Position numbers and translations under genes: made by a program
In this document: positions 4,074 to 37,004 of the stretch, one piece after another
Position numbering within the stretch: position 1 is the stretch's first letter
Layout: the number at the start of each line of letters is the position of its first letter
The notes under the pieces: model-generated
The model's input: only the letters and a program-made list of their open reading frames with translations
Told to the model about the DNA's origin: nothing
The model's database searches: none
Assembly: GCA_965227435.1 (NCBI GenBank)
Contig: CBDDGB010000002.1
Span: 678,181-742,180 of the forward strand
Origin: Halioglobus sp.
Lineage (GTDB): Bacteria > Pseudomonadota > Gammaproteobacteria > Pseudomonadales > Halieaceae
DNA: 64,000 nt
Direction of reading: 5' to 3'

Positions 4074-5311
4074 CTGACCCCAAGCTCGCGCAGCTGGTTG
4101 CGCAACCAGGAAGACAGCCAGAAGTTCTCGCTCGAGGCCAGCAGGCGCTCGTGCGCGTTGCGCAGTGCGGCATTGACGCGTGGGTCATCGGAAGGCAGAA
4201 GATCCAGCAGGTGTAGCGCCTCTTCGAGCTTACCCGCGTCAAGCTTTTCCTCCGCCCGCGTCACCACCGCCTCGGCACCGCCCGCCAGTTCCACGAGGTC
4301 TGCGTGCACCGCACTCTGCGGCACTGCGTAGAGCTCGGTGGTCGAGCGATGCTTGAACCAACCCGCGTAGTTTTCCCAGATGGCACGCACACTCCAGGAC
4401 ACCTTGCCGTAGCCCTGACCCACTTCAAACTCAGGTGGTAGTGCGATCTCCGCCATCAGGGTATGCAGGTCCTTGCCCGCGTTCATACCCGCCACCGTCG
4501 CATCGTGAACGTGCAGAATCGCGCCGTGTAAAGCGGCGAGTTCAGACTGGATAAGTTCGGCGCCGTGCACGGGACCATGGTGACCGTAGAGAATCGATTC
4601 CGGCTCGAGCGCGCGCACACACTCAACGGCAGCCGCCACGGTAAGCGCATCGCGATAGCGATCTCCGCGAATCGTAACGAGGTTAGGGAAATGACCGAAG
4701 GGACAACCAAACAGGTTGCCGGTGAGGCAGATGCGATGCTGCGGGAGCCAGACTATAAGTGAGTCATTAGTTTCTGCACCGGGGACCGCGATGAGCTCAA
4801 CCTCGAGCCCGCCCAACGTAAAACGGTATTCGCCCTCAAAAAGTATGTCAGGCGTTGGTACATCCTGGTCGGGATAGTCCGTGTAGCCGGCCGCGCCGTA
4901 CTGCTCGAACGCGGCGCCGAACTTTTCAGTGAAGGCAAACGCGGAACGGCTCGCGCGAAACGGCGCAAGGCGCGCATCGTACTCCTGGTGCGCAGGATTC
5001 TCCGCCGTAGCAATCACCTTGAGGCCCGGGTGCTGCTCACGCAGCCAGGCCGTACCGCCCACGTGATCGACGTGGCCCTGGGTAAACACGAGGTAGCGCA
5101 CGGGCGCGTCGTTGAAGCTGTCAAAGTTCTGCTTGATCACGGGCGCCTCGATACCCATGCCGGCGTTCACCTGTATGTTGCCCTCGGGCGTTTCAATAAG
5201 GTACGCGTTGGAAAAAGCCTCCGACAACACGATGAAGTCGTTGATGCGCTCACCCCCAAATGCGGCGGGTTGCGGCTCGACGGGACGGCTCTTGTACAAA
5301 GGTGTTCTCAT
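4070..5311 (-). CDS. MBL-fold metallo-hydrolase, alkyl/aryl-sulfatase-like
   Basis: TQGHVDHVGG, GAETND, GHHGP, GQGYGKVSWSVRAIWENYAGWF (resembles the alkylsulfatase dimerisation region). Confidence 0.82.
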   Translation of the reverse strand: MRTPLYKSRPVEPQPAAFGGERINDFIVLSEAFSNAYLIETPEGNIQVNAGMGIEAPVIKQNFDSFNDAPVRYLVFTQGHVDHVGGTAWLREQHPGLKVIATAENPAHQEYDARLAPFRASRSAFAFTEKFGAAFEQYGAAGYTDYPDQDVPTPDILFEGEYRFTLGGLEVELIAVPGAETNDSLIVWLPQHRICLTGNLFGCPFGHFPNLVTIRGDRYRDALTVAAAVECVRALEPESILYGHHGPVHGAELIQSELAALHGAILHVHDATVAGMNAGKDLHTLMAEIALPPEFEVGQGYGKVSWSVRAIWENYAGWFKHRSTTELYAVPQSAVHADLVELAGGAEAVVTRAEEKLDAGKLEEALHLLDLLPSDDPRVNAALRNAHERLLASSENFWLSSWLRNQLRELGVS

Positions 5312-5325
5312 GGGAAGTCCCTGGG

Positions 5326-6594
5326 TCAGCGCACTTCCACCTGTACGGGGAAGCGATCGAAATAGAAATTGAAACGTTCACGGAGCGCGTCTGGCTCAAC
5401 GCCAAAGTCACCGCGCAGGTCGTAAACCACCTGGCCATGTTTGCCGCGTGGGTGCGCTGCTACAAAGCCCTCGAGTTCACCGCGGGCCGCTCCCGTAAGC
5501 TCAAGACCTGCCCGCTCGTAGATGCGCTCCACCATCGCCATGTCATCTGCCATAAATTCGTGGAACAACACGTCGATGCTCTGCTCGGGCGCTAGCAGGT
5601 CACGGTCGCGCACACAGGCCTCAAGCAGGCGCACCACGCGATCGCTCCAGTACTCGATCAGTCCTTCAAGGTCGACCCTCTCACGATTCAGCCGCTGGCC
5701 GTAGGCGAGCATCGTGGCGGCGGACTGTATGACGGAAACAGGATCACGATGCGTAATCGCAATAGTGGATTCGGGGAACACGCTGTGCAGCACCGGCAAC
5801 TGCTCAAGATGCTGGGGGCACTTCAGCACCCAACGCGTGTTTTCGCCGGTAAGGTCGCCGTCCTGCCAGGTGAGTATCTTCATCACCGTTTTCATGTAGT
5901 TGTAATGTGGCGTCTGGTCGGTAGACAGGTAGTGGTCGCGCCAGCGCGGTGACATCGACAGCCACTCATAGTTGTAAGACGCAAAATCGGGCCCCATGAG
6001 CTCCAACTCCTCGTGGATATGGTCGGGGTTCATGGGGTGCATTGCGGCGAGCAGGGGCGACATACCCTGCATCATCTGCCAGGTGTCTTCACAGCGCTGC
6101 CAGCGCGGGTCGATACCCTCTGCGGAGACGCCCTCCCCCGGTCGCGGCACAGGCTCGTAAGACTCCCAGAGCGGCAGCGAGCGGAAGCGGGTGTCGGCGC
6201 CCATAAGGTTCAACAGGTGCGTGGTGCCGGAACGCGGCAGCCCCGCGACAATAATGGGCGCGTGGACTTCGATATCGTGAATGGCGGGGTGGCGCTTGAG
6301 CGTGTCCTGTATGAGGAGCCGGCTGCTCGCGTGCTGCAGCAGCTTGTTGCGCAATGTAAGACGACCGATGTTCCGCAGGCCAGCGTCGCCGTTCCATTCA
6401 TCACAGAGCAGGCCAAGGCGCTCGAGGAAATCCTCCGGCCCGAAGTCTTGAAGACCGGTCTGCTGGGCAGCTTCTTCAAGGACACTCTGCACACTGAGGT
6501 CGACATCAAGCGTCTGCGTGAACTCAATCGCGGCGCGCTGCTGCTCTGTCAGTTCGGGCTCGGCGAGGTCTGTTATGCGTATTTTTTCTGCCAT
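5326..6594 (-). CDS. Sulfotransferase family protein
   Basis: 5'-PSB GLPRSGTTHL, WVLKCPQH, 3'-PB THRDPVSVIQS. Confidence 0.9.
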   Translation of the reverse strand: MAEKIRITDLAEPELTEQQRAAIEFTQTLDVDLSVQSVLEEAAQQTGLQDFGPEDFLERLGLLCDEWNGDAGLRNIGRLTLRNKLLQHASSRLLIQDTLKRHPAIHDIEVHAPIIVAGLPRSGTTHLLNLMGADTRFRSLPLWESYEPVPRPGEGVSAEGIDPRWQRCEDTWQMMQGMSPLLAAMHPMNPDHIHEELELMGPDFASYNYEWLSMSPRWRDHYLSTDQTPHYNYMKTVMKILTWQDGDLTGENTRWVLKCPQHLEQLPVLHSVFPESTIAITHRDPVSVIQSAATMLAYGQRLNRERVDLEGLIEYWSDRVVRLLEACVRDRDLLAPEQSIDVLFHEFMADDMAMVERIYERAGLELTGAARGELEGFVAAHPRGKHGQVVYDLRGDFGVEPDALRERFNFYFDRFPVQVEVR

Positions 6595-25684: not shown

Positions 25685-25693
25685 GTGACTGCC

Positions 25694-28600
25694 ATGAGAA
25701 TCTCGACAATAAAACTCCGTAGCCTCTCTACCATCGGCCGTCTCGCGGCGGTCGCACTGGTGGCAGGTCTCGCATGGGCCGGCCCGGCAAGTGCCGCCTC
25801 AAAGCTCGTTGCCGTGGAGCGGGATTACATCACCGCACCAGATGCACCACCGAGCCAGAAGGCAGCAGCGGTCACGGCAAAGTCGGAAGGGTGCGAAAGC
25901 TGCCACACGGCAACGGACCAGAAGACCATGCACGCCAACCCGGCAGTCAAGCTGGGCTGTACGGACTGCCACGGCGGCAACGCCGAGGTCTTCCGGCCCG
26001 AAGGGTCATCGACGCTGGATGACGCGCCGTACCTCGCTGCCATGGAATCGGCGCACGTTCTGCCCCGCTACCCCGATGCCTGGCATTACCCCTCCAGCGC
26101 CAATCCCAAGCGCACCTATACGCTGCTCAACAAGGAAAGCCCGGAATTTGTGCGCTTTATTAATCCATCAGACTACCGGATTGCCCGGGAAGCCTGTGGC
26201 GCTTGCCACCTGCCGATCATCCAGGCCGCCGAACGCAGCCTGATGGCCACCTCCGCCATGCTCTGGGGTGGTGCCGCGTACAACAACGGTATCCTGCCGT
26301 TCAAACGCTACATCCTTGGTGAGGCCTACAACCGTGAAGGTGTCGGCACGAGCCTACAGAACCCGATCGAGCCGACCGAGGAAATGATTCAGGCGAGCAT
26401 TCTGCCGCAGATCTTCCCACTGCCCGCCTGGGAGACCATCCACCCCGGCGATATCTTCCGTGTTTTCGAACGCGGCGGCCGCAACATCAGCAACCTGTTC
26501 CCGGAAACCGGGCTGCCCAATGCGCTCGGACTACTGCAACGTATTGAGGAACCGGGACGGCCCGACTTCCGCCAATCCAACCGCGGACCGGGTACAGGCG
26601 CACGTATCGCGGTACCCGTGATCAACATTACCAAGACGCGACTCAACGATCCGCACACCTGGTTTATGGGCACCAACGACCAGCCCGGCGACTTCCGCCA
26701 CTCGGGCTGTGCATCGTGTCACGTGGTGTACGCGAACGACCGCGATCCGCGTCACTCCGCAGGCTACAGCCAGTTCGGCCACACCGGGCGCACGCAGACG
26801 GCCGACCCCACCATTTCCAAGGAAGAAAAGGGTCACCCGCTCAAGCATGAGTTCACACGTGCGATTCCGACCAGCCAGTGTATGTCCTGTCACATGCACC
26901 AGCCGAACATGTTCATCAATACGTACCTCGGCTACACGATGTGGGATTACGAATCGGATGCGCCGCGCATGTGGCCCGAAGAGCAGTTCTACCCCACGGA
27001 CGAAGAACGCCACAACACGCTGGAACGCAACCCGGAGGGCGCTGCACCGCGTGGCAAGTGGAAGGACATCGAGTTCGTAGAACAGGTGTCTGAAATGAAT
27101 GACCAGATGCAGGACACCCAGTTCGCCGACTATCACGGTCACGGGTGGAACTTCCGGGCGATCTTCAAGCGCGACCGCGTGGGCAACCTGCTGGACGCTG
27201 AGGGTAATATCGTCAGTGACGATGACCCCGAAAAGTTCGACAAGGCGGTGCACATGTCCTCGATCCACGTGGATGTGGGAATGCACTGTGTCGACTGTCA
27301 CTTCGCGCAGGATAACCACGGTAACGGGCATATTTACGGAGAGGTCGCGGCCGCCGTCGAGATCGACTGTAAAGACTGCCACGGCTCTGCCGACGCCTAC
27401 CCGAACCTCTACACCTCGGGACCGGCCGCACTCGAGGGCGGCACGAACCTGGGTGCTATTCGCAACCCGGACGGCCGCAGACGCTTTGAGTGGATTGGCG
27501 ACAAGCTGATACAGCGCTCGGTGCTGAACCCCGATCTTGAGTGGGAGATGAGCCTCGTCAAGGACACGGTGACACCTGGCCACGCCAGCTACAACAAGAA
27601 GGCGGCCCGCTCCAAGCTCATGAGCGACGACACCGAGAAGCAGAACTGGGGCCTCAGTGTTGCCAACGAAGACCGGGCGCACTCGGATGACGACATCGAG
27701 TGTTACACCTGCCACACGTCCTGGACAACAAGCTGTGGTGGTTGTCACCTGCCCATCGAGGCGAACAACAAGACAGAACGTCATCACTACGAGGGCGGCG
27801 AAACGAGGAACTATGCCACCTACAACCCACAGGTGGCGCGCGACCAGATCTTTATGATCGGACGGCGCGAAACGGCGAAAGGCGGCAAGATCGCGCCGGT
27901 ACGCTCTACCTCGGCGCTGGTGTTGTCTTCCACCAACTCCAACCGCGAGAAGATCTACGTACAGCAGCCGCCGATCGCATCGTCTGGCTACAGCTCGCAG
28001 GCCATGAACCCGCACTTCCCGCACACGGCGCGTAAGACCGAGACTCGCGTGTGTGACGACTGTCACCTCTCGAAAGAGAAAGACAACAACGCGATCATGG
28101 CGCAAACGCTGATGTACGGCACCGACTTCATCGACCTGCTCGGTTACCACGCTTACGTGGGCGGTGAAGAACACATTACGCCTGTACAGGTCACGGAGTG
28201 GCAGGAACCGCAGGCGGTAATCGGCAGCTATCTGCAGCGTTACGCCTACCCCGACTACTTCGGTGAACACCAGGCGAATGGCAAAGTGCTGAAACACGCC
28301 TACCCGCACGGCAGCGGCCGCGCGGCGTGCATCCAGCTACGCGGTGAATACCTCTTCGTAGCCGAGGGTGATCGCGGCATGCAGGTGTACGATGCCGCCA
28401 GCGTCGGCAACAAGGGTATCTCGCAACGCGTGATAACCGCGCCGTTCAGCCCGCTGGGCCACGACACGCGCATCGAGAGCAAGAACGCCACCTGCGTTGC
28501 CCTCTCGACGACCCAGCCTGTCGCACCGGAGCGCAACGAGGGCGACCTGATGCGCGTGACCAACCAGGAGCAGCCGTTCCAGGCGCACTATACGTACGCG

Positions 28601-29434
28601 TTTATCACGGACTCCGAGGAAGGCCTGATCCTGACCAACATGGACACGCTCATGGATGGCGAGCCGCGCAACAACTTCATGGAGCGCCAGCTGACCTGGA
28701 ACGAGGGCGGCATTCTCGACGGCGCGCGGCACATCATCCTTGGCGGCTACTACGCCTACATCGTCGCCGATGCTGGCCTGGTCGTGCTGAACCTCGAGGA
28801 CCCGCTCAACCCGATCCACGAGGCAACGGTGCCGCTGAACGATGGTCACTCGGTCGCACAGCAGTTCCGTTACCTGTTCGTGACCGATGCCGATGGCCTC
28901 AAGGTGATCGACATCACCCACCCACCGAAGCCGCAGCTCGTGGAAGGCAGCATGATTCCACTCGCCGAGGCCGGCAGGTTGCACCTTGCACGCACGTACG
29001 CTTACGTGGCGGCGGGTTCAGAGGGAATGGCTATCGTGGATATCACCAGGCCTGAGAGCATGAAGCTCTACCAGATGTTCAGCGATGGCCTTGTAGACAG
29101 TCAGGATGTTACTGTAGCCACGACCAACGCATCGCTGTTCGCCTACGTGGCAGATGGCCGCGGTGGCCTGAAAGTAATACAGCTGACCTCGCCCGAAAGC
29201 CAGCCCAAGTTCTACGGCTTCAGCCCGGAACCCAAGCCAGTGCTGATTGCGAGCTACCCGACCAAATCGCCGGCGCTGTCGCTGTCGCGAGCCCTTGAGC
29301 GGGACCGCGGTGTTGACGAGACCGGTGGCCAGGTCGCGGTATTCGGACGTGTGGGCTCGCGCCCGCTGAACCTGGAAGAGATGCAACGCCTCTTCCTCGA
29401 TGATCAAGGCAAACCATGGTATGTAGAAAACTAG
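25694..29434 (+). CDS. Exported decaheme c-type cytochrome with C-terminal LVIVD-repeat domain
   Basis: Signal peptide (..GPASA); 10 CxxCH motifs; repeats such as YLFVTDADGLKVIDITHP and YAYVAAGSEGMAIVDITRP; alternative GTG start 25685. Confidence 0.88.
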   Translation: MRISTIKLRSLSTIGRLAAVALVAGLAWAGPASAASKLVAVERDYITAPDAPPSQKAAAVTAKSEGCESCHTATDQKTMHANPAVKLGCTDCHGGNAEVFRPEGSSTLDDAPYLAAMESAHVLPRYPDAWHYPSSANPKRTYTLLNKESPEFVRFINPSDYRIAREACGACHLPIIQAAERSLMATSAMLWGGAAYNNGILPFKRYILGEAYNREGVGTSLQNPIEPTEEMIQASILPQIFPLPAWETIHPGDIFRVFERGGRNISNLFPETGLPNALGLLQRIEEPGRPDFRQSNRGPGTGARIAVPVINITKTRLNDPHTWFMGTNDQPGDFRHSGCASCHVVYANDRDPRHSAGYSQFGHTGRTQTADPTISKEEKGHPLKHEFTRAIPTSQCMSCHMHQPNMFINTYLGYTMWDYESDAPRMWPEEQFYPTDEERHNTLERNPEGAAPRGKWKDIEFVEQVSEMNDQMQDTQFADYHGHGWNFRAIFKRDRVGNLLDAEGNIVSDDDPEKFDKAVHMSSIHVDVGMHCVDCHFAQDNHGNGHIYGEVAAAVEIDCKDCHGSADAYPNLYTSGPAALEGGTNLGAIRNPDGRRRFEWIGDKLIQRSVLNPDLEWEMSLVKDTVTPGHASYNKKAARSKLMSDDTEKQNWGLSVANEDRAHSDDDIECYTCHTSWTTSCGGCHLPIEANNKTERHHYEGGETRNYATYNPQVARDQIFMIGRRETAKGGKIAPVRSTSALVLSSTNSNREKIYVQQPPIASSGYSSQAMNPHFPHTARKTETRVCDDCHLSKEKDNNAIMAQTLMYGTDFIDLLGYHAYVGGEEHITPVQVTEWQEPQAVIGSYLQRYAYPDYFGEHQANGKVLKHAYPHGSGRAACIQLRGEYLFVAEGDRGMQVYDAASVGNKGISQRVITAPFSPLGHDTRIESKNATCVALSTTQPVAPERNEGDLMRVTNQEQPFQAHYTYAFITDSEEGLILTNMDTLMDGEPRNNFMERQLTWNEGGILDGARHIILGGYYAYIVADAGLVVLNLEDPLNPIHEATVPLNDGHSVAQQFRYLFVTDADGLKVIDITHPPKPQLVEGSMIPLAEAGRLHLARTYAYVAAGSEGMAIVDITRPESMKLYQMFSDGLVDSQDVTVATTNASLFAYVADGRGGLKVIQLTSPESQPKFYGFSPEPKPVLIASYPTKSPALSLSRALERDRGVDETGGQVAVFGRVGSRPLNLEEMQRLFLDDQGKPWYVEN

Positions 29435-30720
29435 TCGCCGCCTGTTTTGCGCTAGTCGGCGCCCTTGTTCTGGCCGGTGCCGCCCAGGCGGCGCCGTTGC
29501 CTGACTCAGGGGCGAACGTGCACGAGGGCGTTGCGAGCTGTTCAAACAGCGTCTGCCACGGCAAGAAAGCACCCAGCACCGACTCACCAGTGCTGCTCAA
29601 CGAGTACACCACCTGGATAGATGAAGACCAGCACTCGCAGGCTTACGCCACGCTCCGGTCCGACCAGTCGGTGCGCATCGCTAAAAACATGGGCCTGCCG
29701 AACGCACACACGGCCGATGTCTGCCTCGATTGTCACGCCGACAACGTACCGAAAGAGAAACGCGGACGGCGCTTCCAGATCACCGAGGGTGTCGGGTGCG
29801 AGGCCTGCCACGGCGGTTCGGGTAAGTGGCTGGAGTCACACGCTGAGGAAGGCACATCGCACGCGGACAACCTGGCCAAGGGTATGTACCCCACCGAGGA
29901 GCCCGTAGAACGCGCCCGCCTCTGCCTCTCGTGCCACCTCGGCACCGAGCGCAAGTTTGCGACCCATGAAATCATGGGCGCCGGCCACCCGCGACTGGCC
30001 TTTGAGCTGGAGCTGTACACCGTCTTCCAGCCACGCCACTACGAAACCGACGCGGATTACCGCGCACGCAAACCGTTCATCCCATCGGTCAACATGTGGC
30101 TGGCGGGCCTCCTGGTATCGAGCGAACAGACGCTCGAACTACTCCAGGAGGACTGGTTCACCAAGCGCAGCCTCGTACCGGAACTATCATTCTTCCAGTG
30201 CCATGCGTGCCACCATCCGCTGGATGACCTGCGCTGGCAGCCCGAGGGTGGCGCAGCCGCGCTGCCACCCGGATCAGTACGACTGAACGATGCCTCATTA
30301 CTGGTACTGCAATCGGTGCTCAGCATCCTCGGCAACGACGCCGCGGCGCAGATTCAGCGCGGCATCCACGAGTTGCACCAGTCGACGCTAACTGACCGCA
30401 ACGCGGTCGTTGCCGCGGCAGCGAAGCTGGAGAAAATACTGCCGCCGCTCGAGAAGGCCATCGTAGACAGGGACTACAATGCTGACGATATGAAGCGTTT
30501 GCGCGAGGGCATCATCAAGGCTGCCGCCAACCAGCGCTATCGCCACTTTACAGCGGCAGAGCAGGCTTACATGGCGGTCGAAAATCTCTGCATCGAGCTG
30601 AATGACGACAAGCGACTGCAGGCGAATCTCGACGAGTGGTTTGAGATCGTCGAAAAAGAGAATGAGTTCAACCCGCAAAAGTTCGCTGCCTCCGCCAACC
30701 GTTTCCTGGGTGCTCTGTGA
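29416..30720 (+). CDS. Exported multiheme cytochrome c (c554/c552-like)
   Basis: Signal peptide; CSNSVCH (CX4CH), CLDCH, GVGCEACHG, CLSCH, CHACH. Confidence 0.85.
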   Translation: MVCRKLVAACFALVGALVLAGAAQAAPLPDSGANVHEGVASCSNSVCHGKKAPSTDSPVLLNEYTTWIDEDQHSQAYATLRSDQSVRIAKNMGLPNAHTADVCLDCHADNVPKEKRGRRFQITEGVGCEACHGGSGKWLESHAEEGTSHADNLAKGMYPTEEPVERARLCLSCHLGTERKFATHEIMGAGHPRLAFELELYTVFQPRHYETDADYRARKPFIPSVNMWLAGLLVSSEQTLELLQEDWFTKRSLVPELSFFQCHACHHPLDDLRWQPEGGAAALPPGSVRLNDASLLVLQSVLSILGNDAAAQIQRGIHELHQSTLTDRNAVVAAAAKLEKILPPLEKAIVDRDYNADDMKRLREGIIKAAANQRYRHFTAAEQAYMAVENLCIELNDDKRLQANLDEWFEIVEKENEFNPQKFAASANRFLGAL

Positions 30721-31703
30721 CTGAAACCGGTGGTGTCGCAGGGTTAGAAACGAGCGGTCACACCGACGTTGGTAAGAGAAAGCATAACGAGGACGCTTTC
30801 CTTATTGACCGAGAACTGGGCCTTTATGTCGTCGCAGACGGCGTTGGCGGCCACCATTCCGGTGAAGTGGCGAGCGCGCTTACGATTGAGGTGATACAGC
30901 GCGAAGTCGCTGCGGGTAAAGACCTCGACACCGCCATTCAACTTGCCAACCAGGCAGTGATTGACGGCGTCGAGACCGGCAAAGGCAAAGCCGGCATGGC
31001 GACCACGGTGGTCGCCCTGAAGCTGACAGGTACTCGTTTCGAGGTCGCCTGGATTGGCGACAGCCGTGCCTATCTCTGGGACGGCAAGCTGACCCTGCTG
31101 ACGAGAGACCACTCGTATGTTGAGGCGCAGCTCGCGGCGGGCAAGATCACGCTGGAAGAAGCGCGTGTACACCCGAGGCGCCACGTGATACTGCAGGCGA
31201 TAGGCCTGCAAATGGAAGGCGAGCTGAACGTCGGCCACAACAGCGGCGAACTCGCTGAAGGCAACACCCTGCTGCTCTGCAGTGACGGCGTGACAGACCC
31301 GCTGGACAATGAACAGCTGTCGCACCTGTTGGGTCGCGACACGCCGCTGGAGCAAACCTGCAATGGGCTGGTGCAGACGGCCCTGCAGTGTGGCGGCAAG
31401 GACAACACCACCGCGGTCGCACTCGCCTACCAGCGAGACTCCGGGCGCGATAGCGCGCCGGGTACCGCAGACGATGCGGTCTGGGTCTACAATCCAGAGA
31501 CCGGCGAGTACGAAGGGTTGCCGGATACGACGCCCGAGATCAACCTGGAGGAAACCCAGGTCATGCGTGCGCGTCCCGCCTCGGCTGCGCCCGAAGCGCA
31601 ACAGGCGAGTGGGCACGAGGGCGGCAATGGCTGGCAATACATCTGGGGTGTCGCGATTGTCGGCACCGCAATGGGACTGGCCCTGGTCTACGCCTTGAGT
31701 TAG
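30717..31703 (+). CDS. PP2C-family Ser/Thr phosphatase with C-terminal TM anchor
   Basis: HNEDA, VADGVGGH, IGDSRAY, LLCSDG, GGKDNTT; GTGA overlap with the cytochrome gene. Confidence 0.92.
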   Translation: MTETGGVAGLETSGHTDVGKRKHNEDAFLIDRELGLYVVADGVGGHHSGEVASALTIEVIQREVAAGKDLDTAIQLANQAVIDGVETGKGKAGMATTVVALKLTGTRFEVAWIGDSRAYLWDGKLTLLTRDHSYVEAQLAAGKITLEEARVHPRRHVILQAIGLQMEGELNVGHNSGELAEGNTLLLCSDGVTDPLDNEQLSHLLGRDTPLEQTCNGLVQTALQCGGKDNTTAVALAYQRDSGRDSAPGTADDAVWVYNPETGEYEGLPDTTPEINLEETQVMRARPASAAPEAQQASGHEGGNGWQYIWGVAIVGTAMGLALVYALS

Positions 31704-31727
31704 GGCAGCCAGGCAAGGAGAACCATC

Positions 31728-31826
31728 ATGGCAGAAGAGCATCAACCGATCGGCTGGCAGTACATCTGGGGAGTCGCAATCGTGGGCACCGCCCTCGGAA
31801 TAGCGCTCGTTTACGTACTCCTGTAA
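31728..31826 (+). CDS. 32-aa membrane microprotein paralogous to the PP2C C-terminal helix
   Basis: AAGGAG RBS 31715-31720; MAEEHQPIGWQYIWGVAIVGTALGIALVYVLL*; not in the ORF track. Confidence 0.8.
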   Translation: MAEEHQPIGWQYIWGVAIVGTALGIALVYVLL

Positions 31827-31858
31827 ACGCAGTCGACGGAGAATCTGGGAGAAAGAAC

Positions 31859-32941
31859 ATGGCAGATCAAGGCGTCACCGCCCGTCTGGTCGCGAGCGAC
31901 GGCACGGCCTATGAATTGTCCGGTGAACAGACACTGGGCAGGTCCAAGGACGCAGACATTACTATCAGCGATCCGAAAATCTCGCGCCAACACGCTCGTT
32001 TCACACTCAGCGGCGAAAGCCTCACTGTAGAAGACCTCGGCTCGGCTAATGGCACCCGAATAAACCAGCGCAAGATCGACGGCGCTGCCGCACTTGCCAA
32101 CGGCGATACCGTCAGCTTCGACACCGTGGATCTCAGGGTTGAAGTCATCGGCGCCGATGCGGGTGGTGACGATTCCGACGAAGCCACTATCATCGGTAGT
32201 CTCGATGAAGAGGCCACCATGGTCGGCATGGCCGCGGCAGAACCTGCACCGGATCCGGAACCGGAGCCAGCGCCAGAACCGGAGCCCGCGCCAGAACCGG
32301 AGCCCGCGGCAGCACCGGAGGGCAAGGTAAGCGCTTCCGCGAAATCAGAATCCAAGGAAGCCGATGTGCCGGACTCCTGGACGGACGAGTCTGCGGGCGG
32401 CTCGGAAACCCAGTTCATCACACCCGAGATGGCCAAGCAGATCGCCGAGATGGCAGAGGACGTCAAGGTCGAAGCCGCGTCAGACCTGCCCCACCTGATT
32501 GTGCTCAACGACAACGGCACGCAACAGGTCGTTGAGCTTGAGACCGGCGCCGAAGGCGCTGACGTCTGGGAAATCGGCCGCGATGATTCCTGCCAGATCG
32601 TACTGCCGCAAGTCGGTGTCTCGGGGCGCCACGCGCAACTGGTTCACGAGGACGGACGCTGGCGGATCGTCAATCTCGTCTCAACGAACAGCATCTTCGT
32701 GAATGGCGAGAAGCGCCCCAAGGCCTTCCTCGGCAACGACGACAAGATCGGCCTCGGCGAAGCCAAGCTGGTATTCAAAGTGGGTAAAGGTGGCGCTGCA
32801 GCACCGCGTCCGGCCGACGCGAAGGCAACCTCAGGCGGCGGCGATTCAGCAGGTGGCGGCGGCATGTCTGCCGGCAAGATCGGTGGTATCGTCGGCGCGG
32901 TCGTGGTTCTCGCCGCGGTCGCTTACTTTCTGCTGGGCTGA
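31859..32941 (+). CDS. Double-FHA protein with PEPEPA linker and C-terminal TM anchor
   Basis: FHA1 LGRS..ISRQH..SANGT; FHA2 IGRD..VSGRH..STNS; C-terminal hydrophobic helix. Confidence 0.9.
   Translation: MADQGVTARLVASDGTAYELSGEQTLGRSKDADITISDPKISRQHARFTLSGESLTVEDLGSANGTRINQRKIDGAAALANGDTVSFDTVDLRVEVIGADAGGDDSDEATIIGSLDEEATMVGMAAAEPAPDPEPEPAPEPEPAPEPEPAAAPEGKVSASAKSESKEADVPDSWTDESAGGSETQFITPEMAKQIAEMAEDVKVEAASDLPHLIVLNDNGTQQVVELETGAEGADVWEIGRDDSCQIVLPQVGVSGRHAQLVHEDGRWRIVNLVSTNSIFVNGEKRPKAFLGNDDKIGLGEAKLVFKVGKGGAAAPRPADAKATSGGGDSAGGGGMSAGKIGGIVGAVVVLAAVAYFLLG
32242..32321 (+). repeat. Coding 18-bp repeats (PEPEPA linker)
   Basis: CCAGAACCGGAGCCCGCG-like units encoding EPAPDPEPEPAPEPEPAPEPEPAAAPE; boundaries approximate. 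Confidence 0.75.
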
Positions 32942-35426: not shown

Positions 35427-37004
35427 ATGAGTAGTGACCGTCCGCCCGGGAGTTCACCCCCGGGCGATTCTTCCAACAAGCAGGTCAATCCCGCAGACCT
35501 GGAACAGGAAACCGAGGTCCGCGACACGGCGGATGACCCCACCGCGCTGTCTGAAGACGAGACAGCGGCCAGCGCCCAATCCTCCTCTCCCGGCGGCGGA
35601 GACCCCGCGCCGGGTGACCTCGTGTCCGGGCGCTACCGACTCGAGAAAAAACTCGGCGAGGGCGGCATGGGTACCGTCTTCCTCGCACTCGATGAGGTAT
35701 ACGCAGGGGAGTTCGAAGACAAGAACGCCCATGTCGCGCTCAAGTTCTTAAACACCAAGTTCTCCCAGCACAAGATTTCGCGCATCGCGCTGCAACGTGA
35801 AACGCGCAAGTCGCAGCAGCTCGCCCACCCCAACGTGGTGCGTGTCATGCACTTCGACGTGTACGAAGACACGCCCTACATGATCATGGAGTTCATGCGC
35901 GGCCAGCCCATGGACGAGTACCTGGCTGAACGTCGCGGACAGGCAATGACCCTCGAGGAGGCCATGCCGCTGATCAAGGGCATGGCGAACGGGCTCAAGT
36001 ACATTCACGAAGAGGGCCTGGTGCATTCAGATTTCAAGCCGGGCAACGTGTTTGTCACCGAGTCGGGCGTGCCGAAGATCCTCGACCTCGGAATCGCGCG
36101 CATCAGTGAGTCGGTACAGGACGAGGATCACCAGACCAAGTTCGACGTGTCCGCCCTCGGCGCACTGACGCCGACGTACGCCAGCTGCGACATGTTTGAC
36201 GGCATGCCGCCCGACCCCAAGGACGACATCTACGCCCTCGCCCTGGTGATCTACGAGCTGCTGGCCGGGCATCATCCGTTCGAACGCACACCGGCCAACC
36301 GTGCCCGCGGTAACGGCATGCAGCCACCGCGTATCAAGTCGCTTAACCGCACCCGCTGGCGTGCGCTGGAGCAGGGCCTCGCCTTTGAGCGCGACAAGCG
36401 CATCGACAGCGCAGAGGCACTCTACAGCGCCCTGAAAGGCGACAAGCAGCGCCGCAAAATGGTGACGCGCGGTCTCGCCGGCGCCACGTTGCTGGCTATC
36501 CTGACGGCAGTAGCCATCGGCATCTTTGGCGTCAAACCAACAGACCCTGATGAGGCCTACAAAATCGAATTGATGGGCATCTCGCTGGATGCACCGCCGC
36601 CCGAGCCAGATGATATGGCGCGCATTGCACGCTGGCTGGACCAGGGCCAGGCTTATGTGAACATCGCGCGCGATATCTTCGACCAGGGTGACCTCGTCAC
36701 GGCGCACCACGTCCTGCAGGTCGGGGGCGACAATGCGCTTGAGGCCTTTATGTCGATCCTGAAACGCACCTCCCATGACGAAGCCGCGGCAGGCATGCTG
36801 GATATCGTAAACCTGTACGCGAGCTGGTCAGGGGCTAAACTGGAAGAAGGCGATGCTGCGGCCGCGCTGTGGACGGCTTGCCAGGGCCTTGCCCTGCACG
36901 GTGGCCACGAAGAGCTGAACAGCCTGTATGCGCGCGCCGCCAAGACACTGGGCCAGTCACAGCCGGACTGTGAGACCGTGATGCTCACAGAACCGGCAAC
37001 GTAG
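35427..37004 (+). CDS. Membrane-spanning Ser/Thr protein kinase (Hanks type, non-RD)
   Basis: LGEGGMG, VALK, HSDFKPGN, DLG, DIYALA; TM helix then C-terminal extracytoplasmic region. Confidence 0.92.
   Translation: MSSDRPPGSSPPGDSSNKQVNPADLEQETEVRDTADDPTALSEDETAASAQSSSPGGGDPAPGDLVSGRYRLEKKLGEGGMGTVFLALDEVYAGEFEDKNAHVALKFLNTKFSQHKISRIALQRETRKSQQLAHPNVVRVMHFDVYEDTPYMIMEFMRGQPMDEYLAERRGQAMTLEEAMPLIKGMANGLKYIHEEGLVHSDFKPGNVFVTESGVPKILDLGIARISESVQDEDHQTKFDVSALGALTPTYASCDMFDGMPPDPKDDIYALALVIYELLAGHHPFERTPANRARGNGMQPPRIKSLNRTRWRALEQGLAFERDKRIDSAEALYSALKGDKQRRKMVTRGLAGATLLAILTAVAIGIFGVKPTDPDEAYKIELMGISLDAPPPEPDDMARIARWLDQGQAYVNIARDIFDQGDLVTAHHVLQVGGDNALEAFMSILKRTSHDEAAAGMLDIVNLYASWSGAKLEEGDAAAALWTACQGLALHGGHEELNSLYARAAKTLGQSQPDCETVMLTEPAT

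What the first reader, a model, noticed from the sequence alone, without database searches (positions are those of the whole stretch)
31629..31826. Unannotated 32-aa microprotein duplicating the PP2C membrane anchor under purifying selection
Seen: PP2C ends GWQYIWGVAIVGTAMGLALVYALS; 24 bp later an AAGGAG-led ORF encodes MAEEHQPI-GWQYIWGVAIVGTALGIALVYVLL. Over 24 aligned codons, 20 residues are identical, 10 of them via synonymous changes, and three of the four replacements are conservative (M>L, L>I, A>V; plus S>L). That pattern indicates selection on protein. Inference: the helix is a specific interaction motif, and the free peptide acts as a decoy or competitor for phosphatase docking, or as a stoichiometric subunit of the membrane complex.
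Basis: partly seen in the sequence, partly recalled or inferred. Interest (0 to 1): 0.78.

Follow-up and report, generated by a model that had tools for sequence, protein, structure and literature searches.

The report
Mini-gene copied from phosphatase membrane anchor
A 32-codon gene wedged between a membrane phosphatase gene and its partner gene is a conserved, selected copy of the phosphatase's own membrane anchor, which makes it a rare bacterial case of a tiny protein born from a piece of a bigger one, though what it does is still untested.

Summary
The PP2C gene (30717-31703) ends in a 24-residue membrane helix. After 24 nt and an AAGGAG site, a 32-codon ORF (31728-31826) repeats that helix: 20 of 24 residues are identical, 10 of them through synonymous codons.

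The ORF is a real gene. It is intact, with ATG, GGAG and stop, in every sequenced lineage where it occurs except one, across two clades of Halieaceae gammaproteobacteria. Orthologue comparisons give pN/pS 0.18 in its own frame (p = 1e-6). Four of the other five frames give at least 1.4; the fifth, which shares its third codon positions, gives 0.33.

One lineage (L004) has lost the start and stop codons. There the PP2C anchor has also drifted (58-62% against 88% identity at equal catalytic divergence).

The closest outgroup has PP2C, a 32-nt spacer, then FHA, with no mini-gene. The mini-gene's RBS and first 8 nt match the FHA gene's start. This points to a tandem duplication of about 125 bp.

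Conservation is one-sided on the helix (A9, G12, G16). The most likely role is a free anchor that pairs with the PP2C anchor or competes for its membrane partner. That role is inferred, not shown. "Unannotated" is not generally true, because public gene callers call this ORF.

The parts
30717..31703 (+). PP2C/PPM Ser/Thr phosphatase gene (328 aa), tail-anchored. Its start overlaps the stop of the upstream c554-like cytochrome gene.
   Evidence: Pfam PP2C_2, SpoIIE and PP2C. Homologues are all named PP2C/PrpC and come from Halieaceae. Every complete homologue ends in a hydrophobic tail.
31629..31700 (+). Copy 1 of the repeat: the 24-codon C-terminal membrane anchor of PP2C (GWQYIWGVAIVGTAMGLALVYALS).
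   Evidence: KD hydropathy 2.00 over 19 residues. Orthologue pN/pS 0.25.
31715..31720 (+). Shine-Dalgarno AAGGAG, 7 nt upstream of the mini-gene ATG.
   Evidence: A GGAG-type site is kept at the same place in all 9 intact lineages aligned.
31728..31826 (+). Mini-gene: 32-aa protein MAEEHQPIGWQYIWGVAIVGTALGIALVYVLL, an 8-residue acidic N-terminus followed by one TM helix.
   Evidence: ORF. Orthologues in L001/L003, L002, L163-L176. Frame-specific purifying selection. KD hydropathy 2.26. No Pfam match.
31752..31823 (+). Copy 2 of the repeat: the 24 codons of the mini-gene that are homologous to the PP2C anchor.
31847..31866 (+). RBS (GGGAGA) and first 8 nt (ATGGCAGA) of the FHA gene. This is the proposed source of the mini-gene's RBS and start.
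   Evidence: Repeat D5, 31717-31735 against 31848-31866, 84%. IGR plus start alignments give p = 0.0000-0.015 (none of 2,000 shuffles at best), but IGR alone is not significant. The outgroup FHA start has the same ATGGCAGA.
31859..32941 (+). Double-FHA protein (360 aa) with a PEPEPA repeat linker and its own C-terminal TM anchor. It is the downstream operon partner.
   Evidence: Pfam FHA x2. Tail ...IGGIVGAVVVLAAVAYFLLG.
35427..37004 (+). Hanks-type Ser/Thr kinase with one TM segment. It is the likely cognate kinase of the module.
   Evidence: Pfam Pkinase. The same position in L001. TM region.
25685..30720 (+). Two multihaem cytochrome genes (1249 aa with LVIVD repeats; 434 aa c554-like) overlapping head-to-tail with each other and with PP2C. 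They form the upstream part of the same transcription unit.
   Evidence: Synteny conserved in L001, L002, L163 and L177. No promoter or terminator between PP2C and FHA.

Best explanation
The ORF is a genuine, translated gene for a 32-residue single-pass membrane protein. It consists of little more than a second copy of the PP2C phosphatase's tail anchor.

Origin (inferred from anatomy and an outgroup): one tandem duplication of about 125 bp, running from the last codons of the PP2C linker through the PP2C stop, the intergenic spacer, and the RBS plus first 8 nt of the FHA gene. That event fused the FHA gene's translation start in frame to the PP2C anchor and so produced a ready-made mini-gene inside the operon.

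Mechanism (inferred, not shown): the peptide is made from the same mRNA as PP2C and the FHA protein. It inserts in the inner membrane like the PP2C tail. It then uses the conserved small-residue face of the helix (A9, G12xxxG16) either to pair with the PP2C anchor or to occupy the membrane site that this anchor docks to, on the kinase, the FHA protein or another partner. Either way it would tune how much phosphatase sits in the signalling complex. In function it is a bacterial trans-microProtein built from a transmembrane helix.
For: Shown:
- The ORF, ATG, GGAG site and stop are kept in 9 of 10 aligned lineages in two clades whose PP2C catalytic domains are only 70-74% identical.
- Four independent orthologue pairs give Sd 21 and Nd 12, pN/pS 0.18, p = 1.1e-6 in the ORF's frame. 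Four other frames give 1.4-3.4, and the antisense frame that shares third positions gives 0.33.
- The mini-gene is at least as constrained as the PP2C anchor itself (0.18 against 0.25).
- Paralogue synonymous sites are near saturation (pS 0.5-0.8) with pN 0.09-0.20, so the similarity is not a recent copy.
- One lineage (L004) lost it: ATG>ATA, a 12-nt insertion in the RBS region, stop TAA>TAC, and Sd 5.5 with Nd 11.5 against L164.

For the origin:
- The outgroup L177 (58%) and more distant relatives have the PP2C stop followed by 11-34 nt and then the FHA start, with no ORF.
- The spacer from mini-gene stop to FHA start is 32 nt, the same as the outgroup spacer.
- ATGGCAGA and a GGAGA-type RBS are shared by the mini-gene and the FHA gene.
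- Homology to the PP2C linker extends a few codons upstream of GW.

For an in-membrane interaction:
- Variability peaks at 100-105 degrees per residue, and the invariant or small residues lie on one face.
- PP2C anchors are 88-96% identical in all 7 pairs that keep the mini-gene. The background is 38-100% (typically 60-80%) at the same catalytic divergence, and L004 gives 58-62%.
- Both helices carry the same lineage-specific states at positions 7, 8 and 16.
- No promoter, terminator or Rfam RNA lies in the region.
Against: - There is no direct evidence of translation, membrane insertion or any interaction.
- The helical-periodicity test is only marginal (p = 0.03-0.09), and the sequences are related.
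- The 'anchor drifts when the mini-gene is lost' result rests on a single loss event. Some PP2C lineages without a mini-gene also have very conserved anchors (100% and 96% pairs).
- The shared lineage-specific residues could come from an old gene conversion rather than co-evolution. In the window, codons 1-13 differ at 5 of 39 nt against 15 of 33 for codons 14-24.
- Similarity of the two intergenic spacers, without the RBS and start, is not significant (p = 0.05-0.55), so the exact duplication breakpoints are a model.
- The family is confined to one narrow clade and can be lost, so any role is accessory.
Confidence: 0.5

Rival explanations
1. It is a functional small membrane protein, but its target is not the PP2C anchor or that anchor's docking site. 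After duplication it was recruited as a subunit or stabiliser of something else in the membrane, such as the kinase, the tail-anchored FHA protein, the neighbouring cytochrome system or an insertase. Its likeness to the PP2C tail would then be only a trace of its origin.
For: Purifying selection and conserved signals fit any peptide-level function. Known bacterial small membrane proteins mostly bind unrelated larger partners, for example MgrB-PhoQ and CydX-CydAB (PMC12648545). The mini-gene has fixed differences of its own from the tail: V22 and L/Q24 in the window clade, H21 in the L164 clade.
Against: After synonymous saturation the two helices still share 20 of 24 residues and the same conserved face. 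They carry the same lineage-specific states at positions 7, 8 and 16. The PP2C anchor relaxed where the mini-gene died. An unrelated target would not be expected to hold the two helices together.
Confidence: 0.27
2. Most of the paralogue similarity is kept by gene conversion between the two tandem copies (concerted evolution), not by selection for a shared interface. The ORF is selected for generic membrane insertion only.
For: Paralogues are closer within a clade (22-29% nt) than orthologues are between clades (32-44%). In most window-clade lineages the 5' half of the repeat is much more alike than the 3' half (5/39 against 15/33 in the window). Residue -1 before GW also matches between paralogues within lineages.
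Against: Synonymous divergence between paralogues is near saturation (pS 0.5-0.8), so any conversion is old. Since then both copies have kept their residues under pN/pS 0.18-0.25. Generic hydrophobicity would not hold G1, W2, Y4, W6, A9, G12, L19, V20 and L23 invariant in 19 distinct sequences, given how freely PP2C anchors change elsewhere.
Confidence: 0.12
3. The ORF acts in cis as an upstream or leader ORF. What matters is that it is translated, for example to bring the mRNA to the membrane or to set FHA-gene translation, and the peptide has no role once released.
For: It lies 32 nt upstream of the FHA gene in the same operon. A nascent TM helix could in principle target the transcript to the membrane, where the tail-anchored FHA protein must insert. 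That last point is an inference of mine, not a tool result.
Against: The FHA gene has its own GGGAGA RBS, and the same 32-nt spacer works without any ORF in the outgroup. Residue-level conservation on one helix face, with pN/pS 0.18, is more than a generic hydrophobic leader needs.
Confidence: 0.07
4. It is a non-functional leftover of a duplication, or the second half of a PP2C read-through isoform with two TM helices.
For: In the window the ORF is in frame with PP2C, with a single TAG between them. One lineage has let it decay.
Against: The frame relation is not conserved: the spacer is 24 nt in the window, 25 in L171, and 26 in L001 and L002. A leftover would not keep ATG, RBS and stop, nor pN/pS 0.18, while synonymous sites reach 0.4-0.6 divergence within the clade.
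Confidence: 0.03

Closest known systems
Trans-microProteins (miPs) of plants and animals, e.g. Id versus bHLH factors and LITTLE ZIPPER versus HD-ZIPIII. Definition taken from PMC9638782; the named examples are from my own knowledge.
   Same: It is a very small, single-domain protein that is an evolutionary copy of the interaction module of a larger multi-domain protein, made by duplication and domain loss. It is expected to engage the parent protein or the parent's partners.
   Different: The module here is a transmembrane anchor, not a soluble dimerisation domain. The organism is a bacterium. The gene sits next to its parent in the same operon. No interaction or dominant-negative effect has been shown.
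Bacterial small membrane proteins that regulate signalling proteins, e.g. MgrB (47 aa) on the sensor kinase PhoQ (PMC12648545, PMC8404706), and SafA and Prli42 (the latter two from my own knowledge).
   Same: It is under 50 aa, has a single TM helix, is encoded with or near the pathway it would affect, and is presumed to act by helix-helix contacts in the membrane.
   Different: Those proteins are not copies of a segment of their target. A 2025 review of the class never uses the word 'duplication'. The pathway here is a Hanks-type kinase / PP2C / FHA module, not a two-component system.
Small accessory subunits encoded next to their complex, e.g. CydX with CydAB and KdpF with KdpABC (PMC12648545 for CydX; KdpF from my own knowledge).
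   Same: It is a short single-TM ORF directly downstream of the partner gene in the same operon. It is easily missed by annotation and is conserved in order.
   Different: Those subunits are widespread and old, with no sequence relation to their partners. This one is confined to one clade of Halieaceae and is a paralogue of its neighbour's anchor.
Bacterial tail-anchored membrane proteins, including Ser/Thr kinases (PMC3087755, PMC6794478).
   Same: The PP2C, the FHA protein and the mini-protein all have the hydrophobic segment at the extreme C-terminus and no signal peptide.
   Different: The mini-protein has almost no cytoplasmic domain (8-9 residues), so it is essentially an anchor with nothing to anchor.
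Inhibitory fragments of a protein's own sequence (dominant-negative fragment screens in E. coli, PMC9245647).
   Same: The principle is the same: a piece of a protein expressed on its own can compete with the parent's interactions.
   Different: Those fragments are laboratory constructs. This would be a naturally evolved and selected one.

Membership tests
Bacterial small membrane proteins (SMPs, fewer than 50 aa, single TM) | Independent ORF of fewer than 50 codons with its own start codon and ribosome-binding site | tested here: met
   32 codons. ATG preceded by AAGGAG with a 7-nt spacer. Conserved in 9 intact lineages.
Bacterial small membrane proteins (SMPs, fewer than 50 aa, single TM) | One hydrophobic alpha-helical segment long enough to span the membrane | tested here: met
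   The best 19-residue KD mean is 2.26. The segment is homologous to the C-terminal anchor of the PP2C. No dedicated TM predictor or structure prediction was run.
Bacterial small membrane proteins (SMPs, fewer than 50 aa, single TM) | The peptide is actually translated and found in the membrane | not testable with these tools
   Only indirect evidence: frame-specific purifying selection.
Trans-microProtein (miP) | Small single-domain protein (under 20 kDa) | tested here: met
   32 aa, about 3.4 kDa, one helix.
Trans-microProtein (miP) | Evolutionarily related to a domain of a larger multi-domain protein; arose by duplication and domain loss | tested here: met
   20 of 24 residues identical to the PP2C anchor. 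Outgroups lack the ORF and have PP2C directly followed by FHA. Tandem-repeat anatomy.
Trans-microProtein (miP) | Binds the related protein or its complex and modulates its activity | not testable with these tools
   Only circumstantial evidence: a one-sided conservation pattern and a relaxed PP2C anchor after loss of the ORF in L004.
Tail-anchored membrane proteins | Single TM segment at the extreme C-terminus, with no N-terminal signal peptide | tested here: met
   The TM segment occupies residues 9-32 of 32, and the N-terminus is MAEEHQPI. The insertion pathway was not tested.
PP2C/PPM phosphatases | PPM catalytic domain with metal-binding aspartates | tested here: not met
   The mini-protein has no Pfam match. 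It aligns only to the last 24 residues of PP2C, outside the catalytic domain. It is a relative of the PP2C gene's tail, not a phosphatase.
Regulatory leader peptide / translationally coupled upstream ORF | Stop codon overlapping or abutting the downstream start, or a downstream gene that lacks its own RBS | tested here: not met
   A 32-nt spacer holds a GGGAGA site for the FHA gene. The same spacer and RBS serve the FHA gene in the outgroup, which has no ORF.
Known RNA elements | Match to an Rfam covariance model | tested here: not met
   No hit with E up to 1 in 31300-32100.

The most novel reading that the evidence does not exclude
This is a naturally evolved bacterial 'anchor mimic'. A transmembrane microProtein was created in one step by a 125-bp tandem duplication. 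It now co-evolves with, and sets the membrane partnering or stoichiometry of, a tail-anchored PP2C phosphatase in a kinase/phosphatase/FHA module that is genetically linked to multihaem cytochromes. If true, it would show that the eukaryotic microProtein principle also operates inside bacterial membranes, and that partial tandem duplication across a gene boundary is a route to new small-protein regulators.
Probability: 0.35. Interest if true: 0.72.

Novelty: new variant of a known kind. Interest (0 to 1): 0.56.

Why it matters
Hundreds of bacterial small membrane proteins are known, but where they come from and how they find their targets is mostly unclear. The usual discussion is of de novo birth, and two recent reviews do not mention duplication at all.

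In this case the origin can be read from the sequence. It is a piece of the neighbouring phosphatase gene fused to the neighbour's start signals. The likely target is therefore suggested by ancestry, and nature has supplied a loss-of-function comparison (L004).

This gives a concrete, testable model for three things: how a membrane anchor can become a free regulator, a search rule for finding more such cases (a short ORF next to a gene whose terminal TM helix it copies), and a handle on how tail-anchored Ser/Thr phosphatases are positioned relative to their kinases.

The limits are that the clade is narrow, the organisms are little studied, and nothing functional has been measured.

Tried and rejected
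A padded 40-aa query returned only the peptide's own cluster.
- The exhaustive search of 1.84 billion representatives found only that cluster, one PP2C C-terminal fragment and two marginal hits to long proteins, which I regard as chance hydrophobic matches. So there are no distant relatives to learn from.
- Read-through of the PP2C TAG into the in-frame ORF is rejected, because the spacer is 24, 25 or 26 nt in different lineages.
- The antisense 44-aa ORF 31726-31860 is rejected as coding: its frame has pN/pS 3.4.
- Rfam, promoter and terminator scans found nothing in or beside the ORF.
- There are no further copies of the helix elsewhere in the 64-kb window (tblastn).
- Similarity of the two intergenic spacers on their own is not significant, so I do not claim exact duplication breakpoints.
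- The FHA-protein and kinase TM segments show no likeness to the repeated helix. Their variation across lineages gave no usable signal for or against partnership.
- I did not run structure prediction. A single 32-residue helix would be uninformative, and a peptide-plus-anchor complex cannot be submitted with these tools.
- P0003 and P0129 contigs returned gene maps but no DNA.
Full report
**1. What is in the sequence**

- A PP2C-type phosphatase gene (30717-31703; Pfam PP2C_2, SpoIIE and PP2C) ends in the hydrophobic tail GWQYIWGVAIVGTAMGLALVYALS.
- Twenty-four nucleotides further on, 7 nt after an AAGGAG (31715-31720), an ATG opens a 32-codon ORF (31728-31826) encoding MAEEHQPIGWQYIWGVAIVGTALGIALVYVLL.
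- Over the 24 aligned codons, 10 are the same codon, 10 are synonymous and 4 are replacements. The 20 nucleotide differences fall 4/2/14 on codon positions 1/2/3.
- The repeat finder recovers the pair on its own (80% identity, spacing 123 nt).
- With 20 random substitutions, none of 200,000 simulations kept 20 identical residues (maximum 18).
- By Nei-Gojobori counting, the two copies differ at 68% of synonymous sites but only 14% of non-synonymous sites.

**2. Setting**

The window comes from a Halieaceae gammaproteobacterium of the Halioglobus/Haliea group (source names). The gene order on the + strand is:
- a 1249-aa multihaem protein with LVIVD repeats;
- a 434-aa c554-like cytochrome;
- PP2C;
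- the mini-gene;
- a double-FHA protein with its own C-terminal TM anchor.

Further along come a hydrolase on the other strand, an autotransporter barrel and a Hanks-type Ser/Thr kinase. The first three genes overlap head to tail. No promoter-like or terminator-like site lies between PP2C and the FHA gene, and no Rfam family matches. The mini-gene therefore sits inside an operon. This order is conserved in relatives.

**3. Is the free ORF conserved?**

Yes, within a defined clade. I recovered the locus from many public assemblies.
- The ORF is intact in strain-level relatives (L163, L169-L176).
- It is intact in four further lineages of the 'window clade', with PP2C about 85-90% identical: L001/L003, L002, L167/L168/L166 and L171/L172.
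- It is intact in a second clade, where the PP2C catalytic domain is only 70-74% identical (L164, L165). There it reads MADNNS[HN]SSGWQYVWITAVIGT[TM]LAM[AT]LVHVLR.
- The ATG, a GGAG-type site and the stop line up in all of these.
- Public gene callers have called it repeatedly. The exact window peptide and eight variants are in the protein collection. It was not called in L002, L163, L164 or L165, which shows how easily it is missed.

**4. Selection on the free ORF itself**

I used four phylogenetically independent orthologue pairs: WIN-L171, L167-L168, L001-L002 and L164-L165.
- The ORF's frame shows 21 synonymous against 12 non-synonymous differences, pN/pS 0.18, binomial p = 1.1e-6.
- The other two sense frames give 2.27 and 1.42.
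- The antisense frames give 1.76, 0.33 and 3.38. The 0.33 frame shares third positions with the sense frame. The 3.38 frame is that of the 44-aa antisense ORF.
- Within the window clade, pS averages 0.40 against pN 0.06.
- The same pairs give 0.25 for the PP2C anchor, so the mini-gene is at least as constrained as the anchor it copies.

**5. A natural loss**

L004 carries the Halieaceae cluster, although its contig is labelled as a Bacteroidia MAG and is probably mis-binned. In L004 the homologous stretch is still visible (…STGWQYTCMTCVVGITLAMTLVHAPRYPER*) but it is degraded:
- the start is ATA;
- 12 nt are inserted in the RBS region;
- the stop has become TAC, which extends the frame;
- replacements outnumber silent changes against its nearest intact relative (Sd 5.5, Nd 11.5).

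So the gene is dispensable in at least one lineage.

By catalytic domain, L004 is as close to L164 (90%) as L165 is (91%). Yet its PP2C anchor is only 58-62% identical to theirs, while L164 and L165 share 88%. Among PP2C homologues without a mini-gene, pairs at 86-91% catalytic identity have anchors 38-100% identical, typically 60-80%. All seven pairs with an intact mini-gene are 88-96%.

The direction fits the idea that the mini-protein adds a sequence-specific constraint on the PP2C anchor. It is one loss event and few independent contrasts, so I treat it as suggestive only.

**6. Where it came from**

- Relatives at 58% PP2C identity or less have unrelated anchor sequences. Where the FHA gene follows, its start comes 11-34 nt after the PP2C stop, with no ORF between.
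- The closest outgroup with the same synteny, L177, has a 32-nt spacer. That is the same length as the spacer between the mini-gene stop and the FHA start in the window.
- The mini-gene's RBS and first eight nucleotides (GGAGAAC…ATGGCAGA) match those of the FHA gene (GGAGAAAG…ATGGCAGA). This is repeat D5, and it holds in every lineage. The outgroup FHA gene starts the same way.
- Upstream of GW, the mini-protein still resembles the PP2C linker: a His 3-5 residues before GW, and matching residue -1 within lineages.

The simplest account is one tandem duplication of about 125 bp, from the end of the PP2C linker to the eighth nucleotide of the FHA gene. Its junction placed the FHA start signals in frame with a second PP2C anchor. 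Observed periods are 123-135 nt, and 147 nt in L004 with its insertion.

The two spacers without the RBS and start are not significantly alike (p = 0.05-0.55). That is expected after synonymous saturation, so the breakpoints remain a model.

**7. Concerted change of the two helices**

Within the window clade, orthologues are closer than paralogues: tail-tail up to 21% nt difference, mini-mini up to 24%, tail-mini 22-29%. The duplication therefore predates that clade. Between the two clades, orthologues differ by 32-44%, yet tail and mini-gene within the L164 clade differ by only 25-29%.

Both helices have G7, V8 and G16 in the window clade, with A7 in the mini-protein of the L166-L168 lineage. 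Both have L/I7, T8 and A16 in the other clade. L7 looks ancestral from outgroup tails.

Three accounts are possible:
- an old gene conversion, hinted at by the more similar 5' half (5/39 against 15/33 nt in the window);
- two independent duplications of the same design;
- co-evolution.

Synonymous saturation rules out recent conversion but cannot separate the three. I leave this open.

**8. Shape of the constraint**

Across 19 distinct helix sequences, G1, W2, Y4, W6, A9, G12, L19, V20 and L23 never vary. Variability has its spectral peak at 100-105 degrees per residue (permutation p = 0.03 without the last residue, 0.09 with it). The conserved face carries A9, G12 and G16, a GxxxG-type small-residue stripe. 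The variable face carries positions 3, 7, 10, 14, 17, 18 and 21.

That is what a helix looks like when it packs against a protein on one side and faces lipid on the other. The support is modest.

**9. How it most likely works**

Shown: it is a conserved, selected coding gene for a 32-33-residue hydrophobic peptide, paralogous to the PP2C anchor, inside the PP2C-FHA operon, lineage-restricted and occasionally lost.

Inferred: it inserts like the PP2C tail. Through the conserved face it either pairs with that tail or occupies the site the tail docks to. Either way it would set how much phosphatase engages the kinase/FHA complex.

I put about 0.5 on this family of mechanisms (partner or decoy) and cannot split it further. 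Rivals are:
- an unrelated membrane target (0.27);
- similarity maintained mainly by conversion, with only generic selection (0.12);
- a cis-acting leader (0.07);
- a dead remnant or read-through isoform (0.03), which is largely refuted.

**10. Comparison with what is known**

In function it resembles the trans-microProteins of eukaryotes: small copies of an interaction domain of a larger relative, made by duplication and domain loss (PMC9638782). It meets the size and ancestry criteria, but the interaction criterion is untested.

It also fits the bacterial small-membrane-protein class in size, single TM helix and operon position (PMC12648545). The described members of that class, such as MgrB, CydX and others, are not copies of their partners. 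'Duplication' does not occur in either of two recent reviews.

Tail anchoring of bacterial Ser/Thr signalling proteins is known for kinases (PMC3087755). Laboratory fragments of a protein can inhibit their parent (PMC9245647).

It is not a phosphatase, because it has no catalytic domain. It does not have the anatomy of a coupled leader ORF. I file it as a new variant of a known kind.

**11. Verdict**

The inference of protein-level selection is confirmed, and strengthened by orthologues. The interaction or decoy idea is plausible and now has some circumstantial support, but it is untested. The claim that the ORF is unannotated is not generally true.

Interest is moderate to good (0.56). It is a clean, readable example of how a bacterial microprotein can be born, and it comes with a built-in hypothesis for its target. 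Against that, it occurs in a narrow, little-studied clade and has no functional data.

Noticed in passing
L084:5001-5447 (Ga0209254_10009952): The PP2C homologue is split. The catalytic part stops at 5250, and the linker plus TM tail continue as a separate 66-aa ORF (5247-5447) in another frame. This is either a frameshift or assembly error, or a naturally split phosphatase and anchor.
   Followed up: no
L004 (JBLFXU010000016.1, whole locus): The contig is deposited as a 'Bacteroidia bacterium' MAG but carries the Halieaceae cytochrome-PP2C-FHA cluster, with a PP2C catalytic domain 90% identical to L164. It is probably mis-binned.
   Followed up: partly
window 32234-32323: The linker between the two FHA domains is an 18-nt-period repeat encoding (PEPEPA)n. 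The protein length varies (353-367 aa) between close relatives, probably at this repeat.
   Followed up: no
window 32860-32941; L004, L177: The double-FHA protein is itself tail-anchored. Its TM segment is nearly invariant in the window clade (IGGIVGAVVVLAAVAYFLLG) but unrelated in L004 and in the outgroup L177. So all three signalling proteins of the module change their TM segments between clades.
   Followed up: partly
window 25685-30720: Two multihaem cytochrome genes (1249 aa with LVIVD repeats; 434 aa c554-like) overlap each other and the PP2C start (29416-29434, 30717-20). This linkage is conserved down to 58% PP2C identity. It suggests that the kinase/phosphatase/FHA module is tied to an extracytoplasmic redox system.
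   Followed up: partly
window 31701-31727: In the window and its strain-level relatives the mini-gene is in frame with PP2C, with one TAG and no other stop between them. In L001, L002 and L171 the spacer length breaks the frame, so this looks incidental.
   Followed up: yes
L001:12357-12987: Directly downstream of the kinase in the 87% relative lies a 900-aa protein with Peptidase_C14 (caspase-like) and Sel1 hits. I did not check the equivalent position in the window (after 37004).
   Followed up: no
window 31726-31860 (- strand): A 44-aa antisense ORF overlaps the mini-gene. Its frame shows pN/pS 3.4 across orthologues, so it is not coding.
   Followed up: yes
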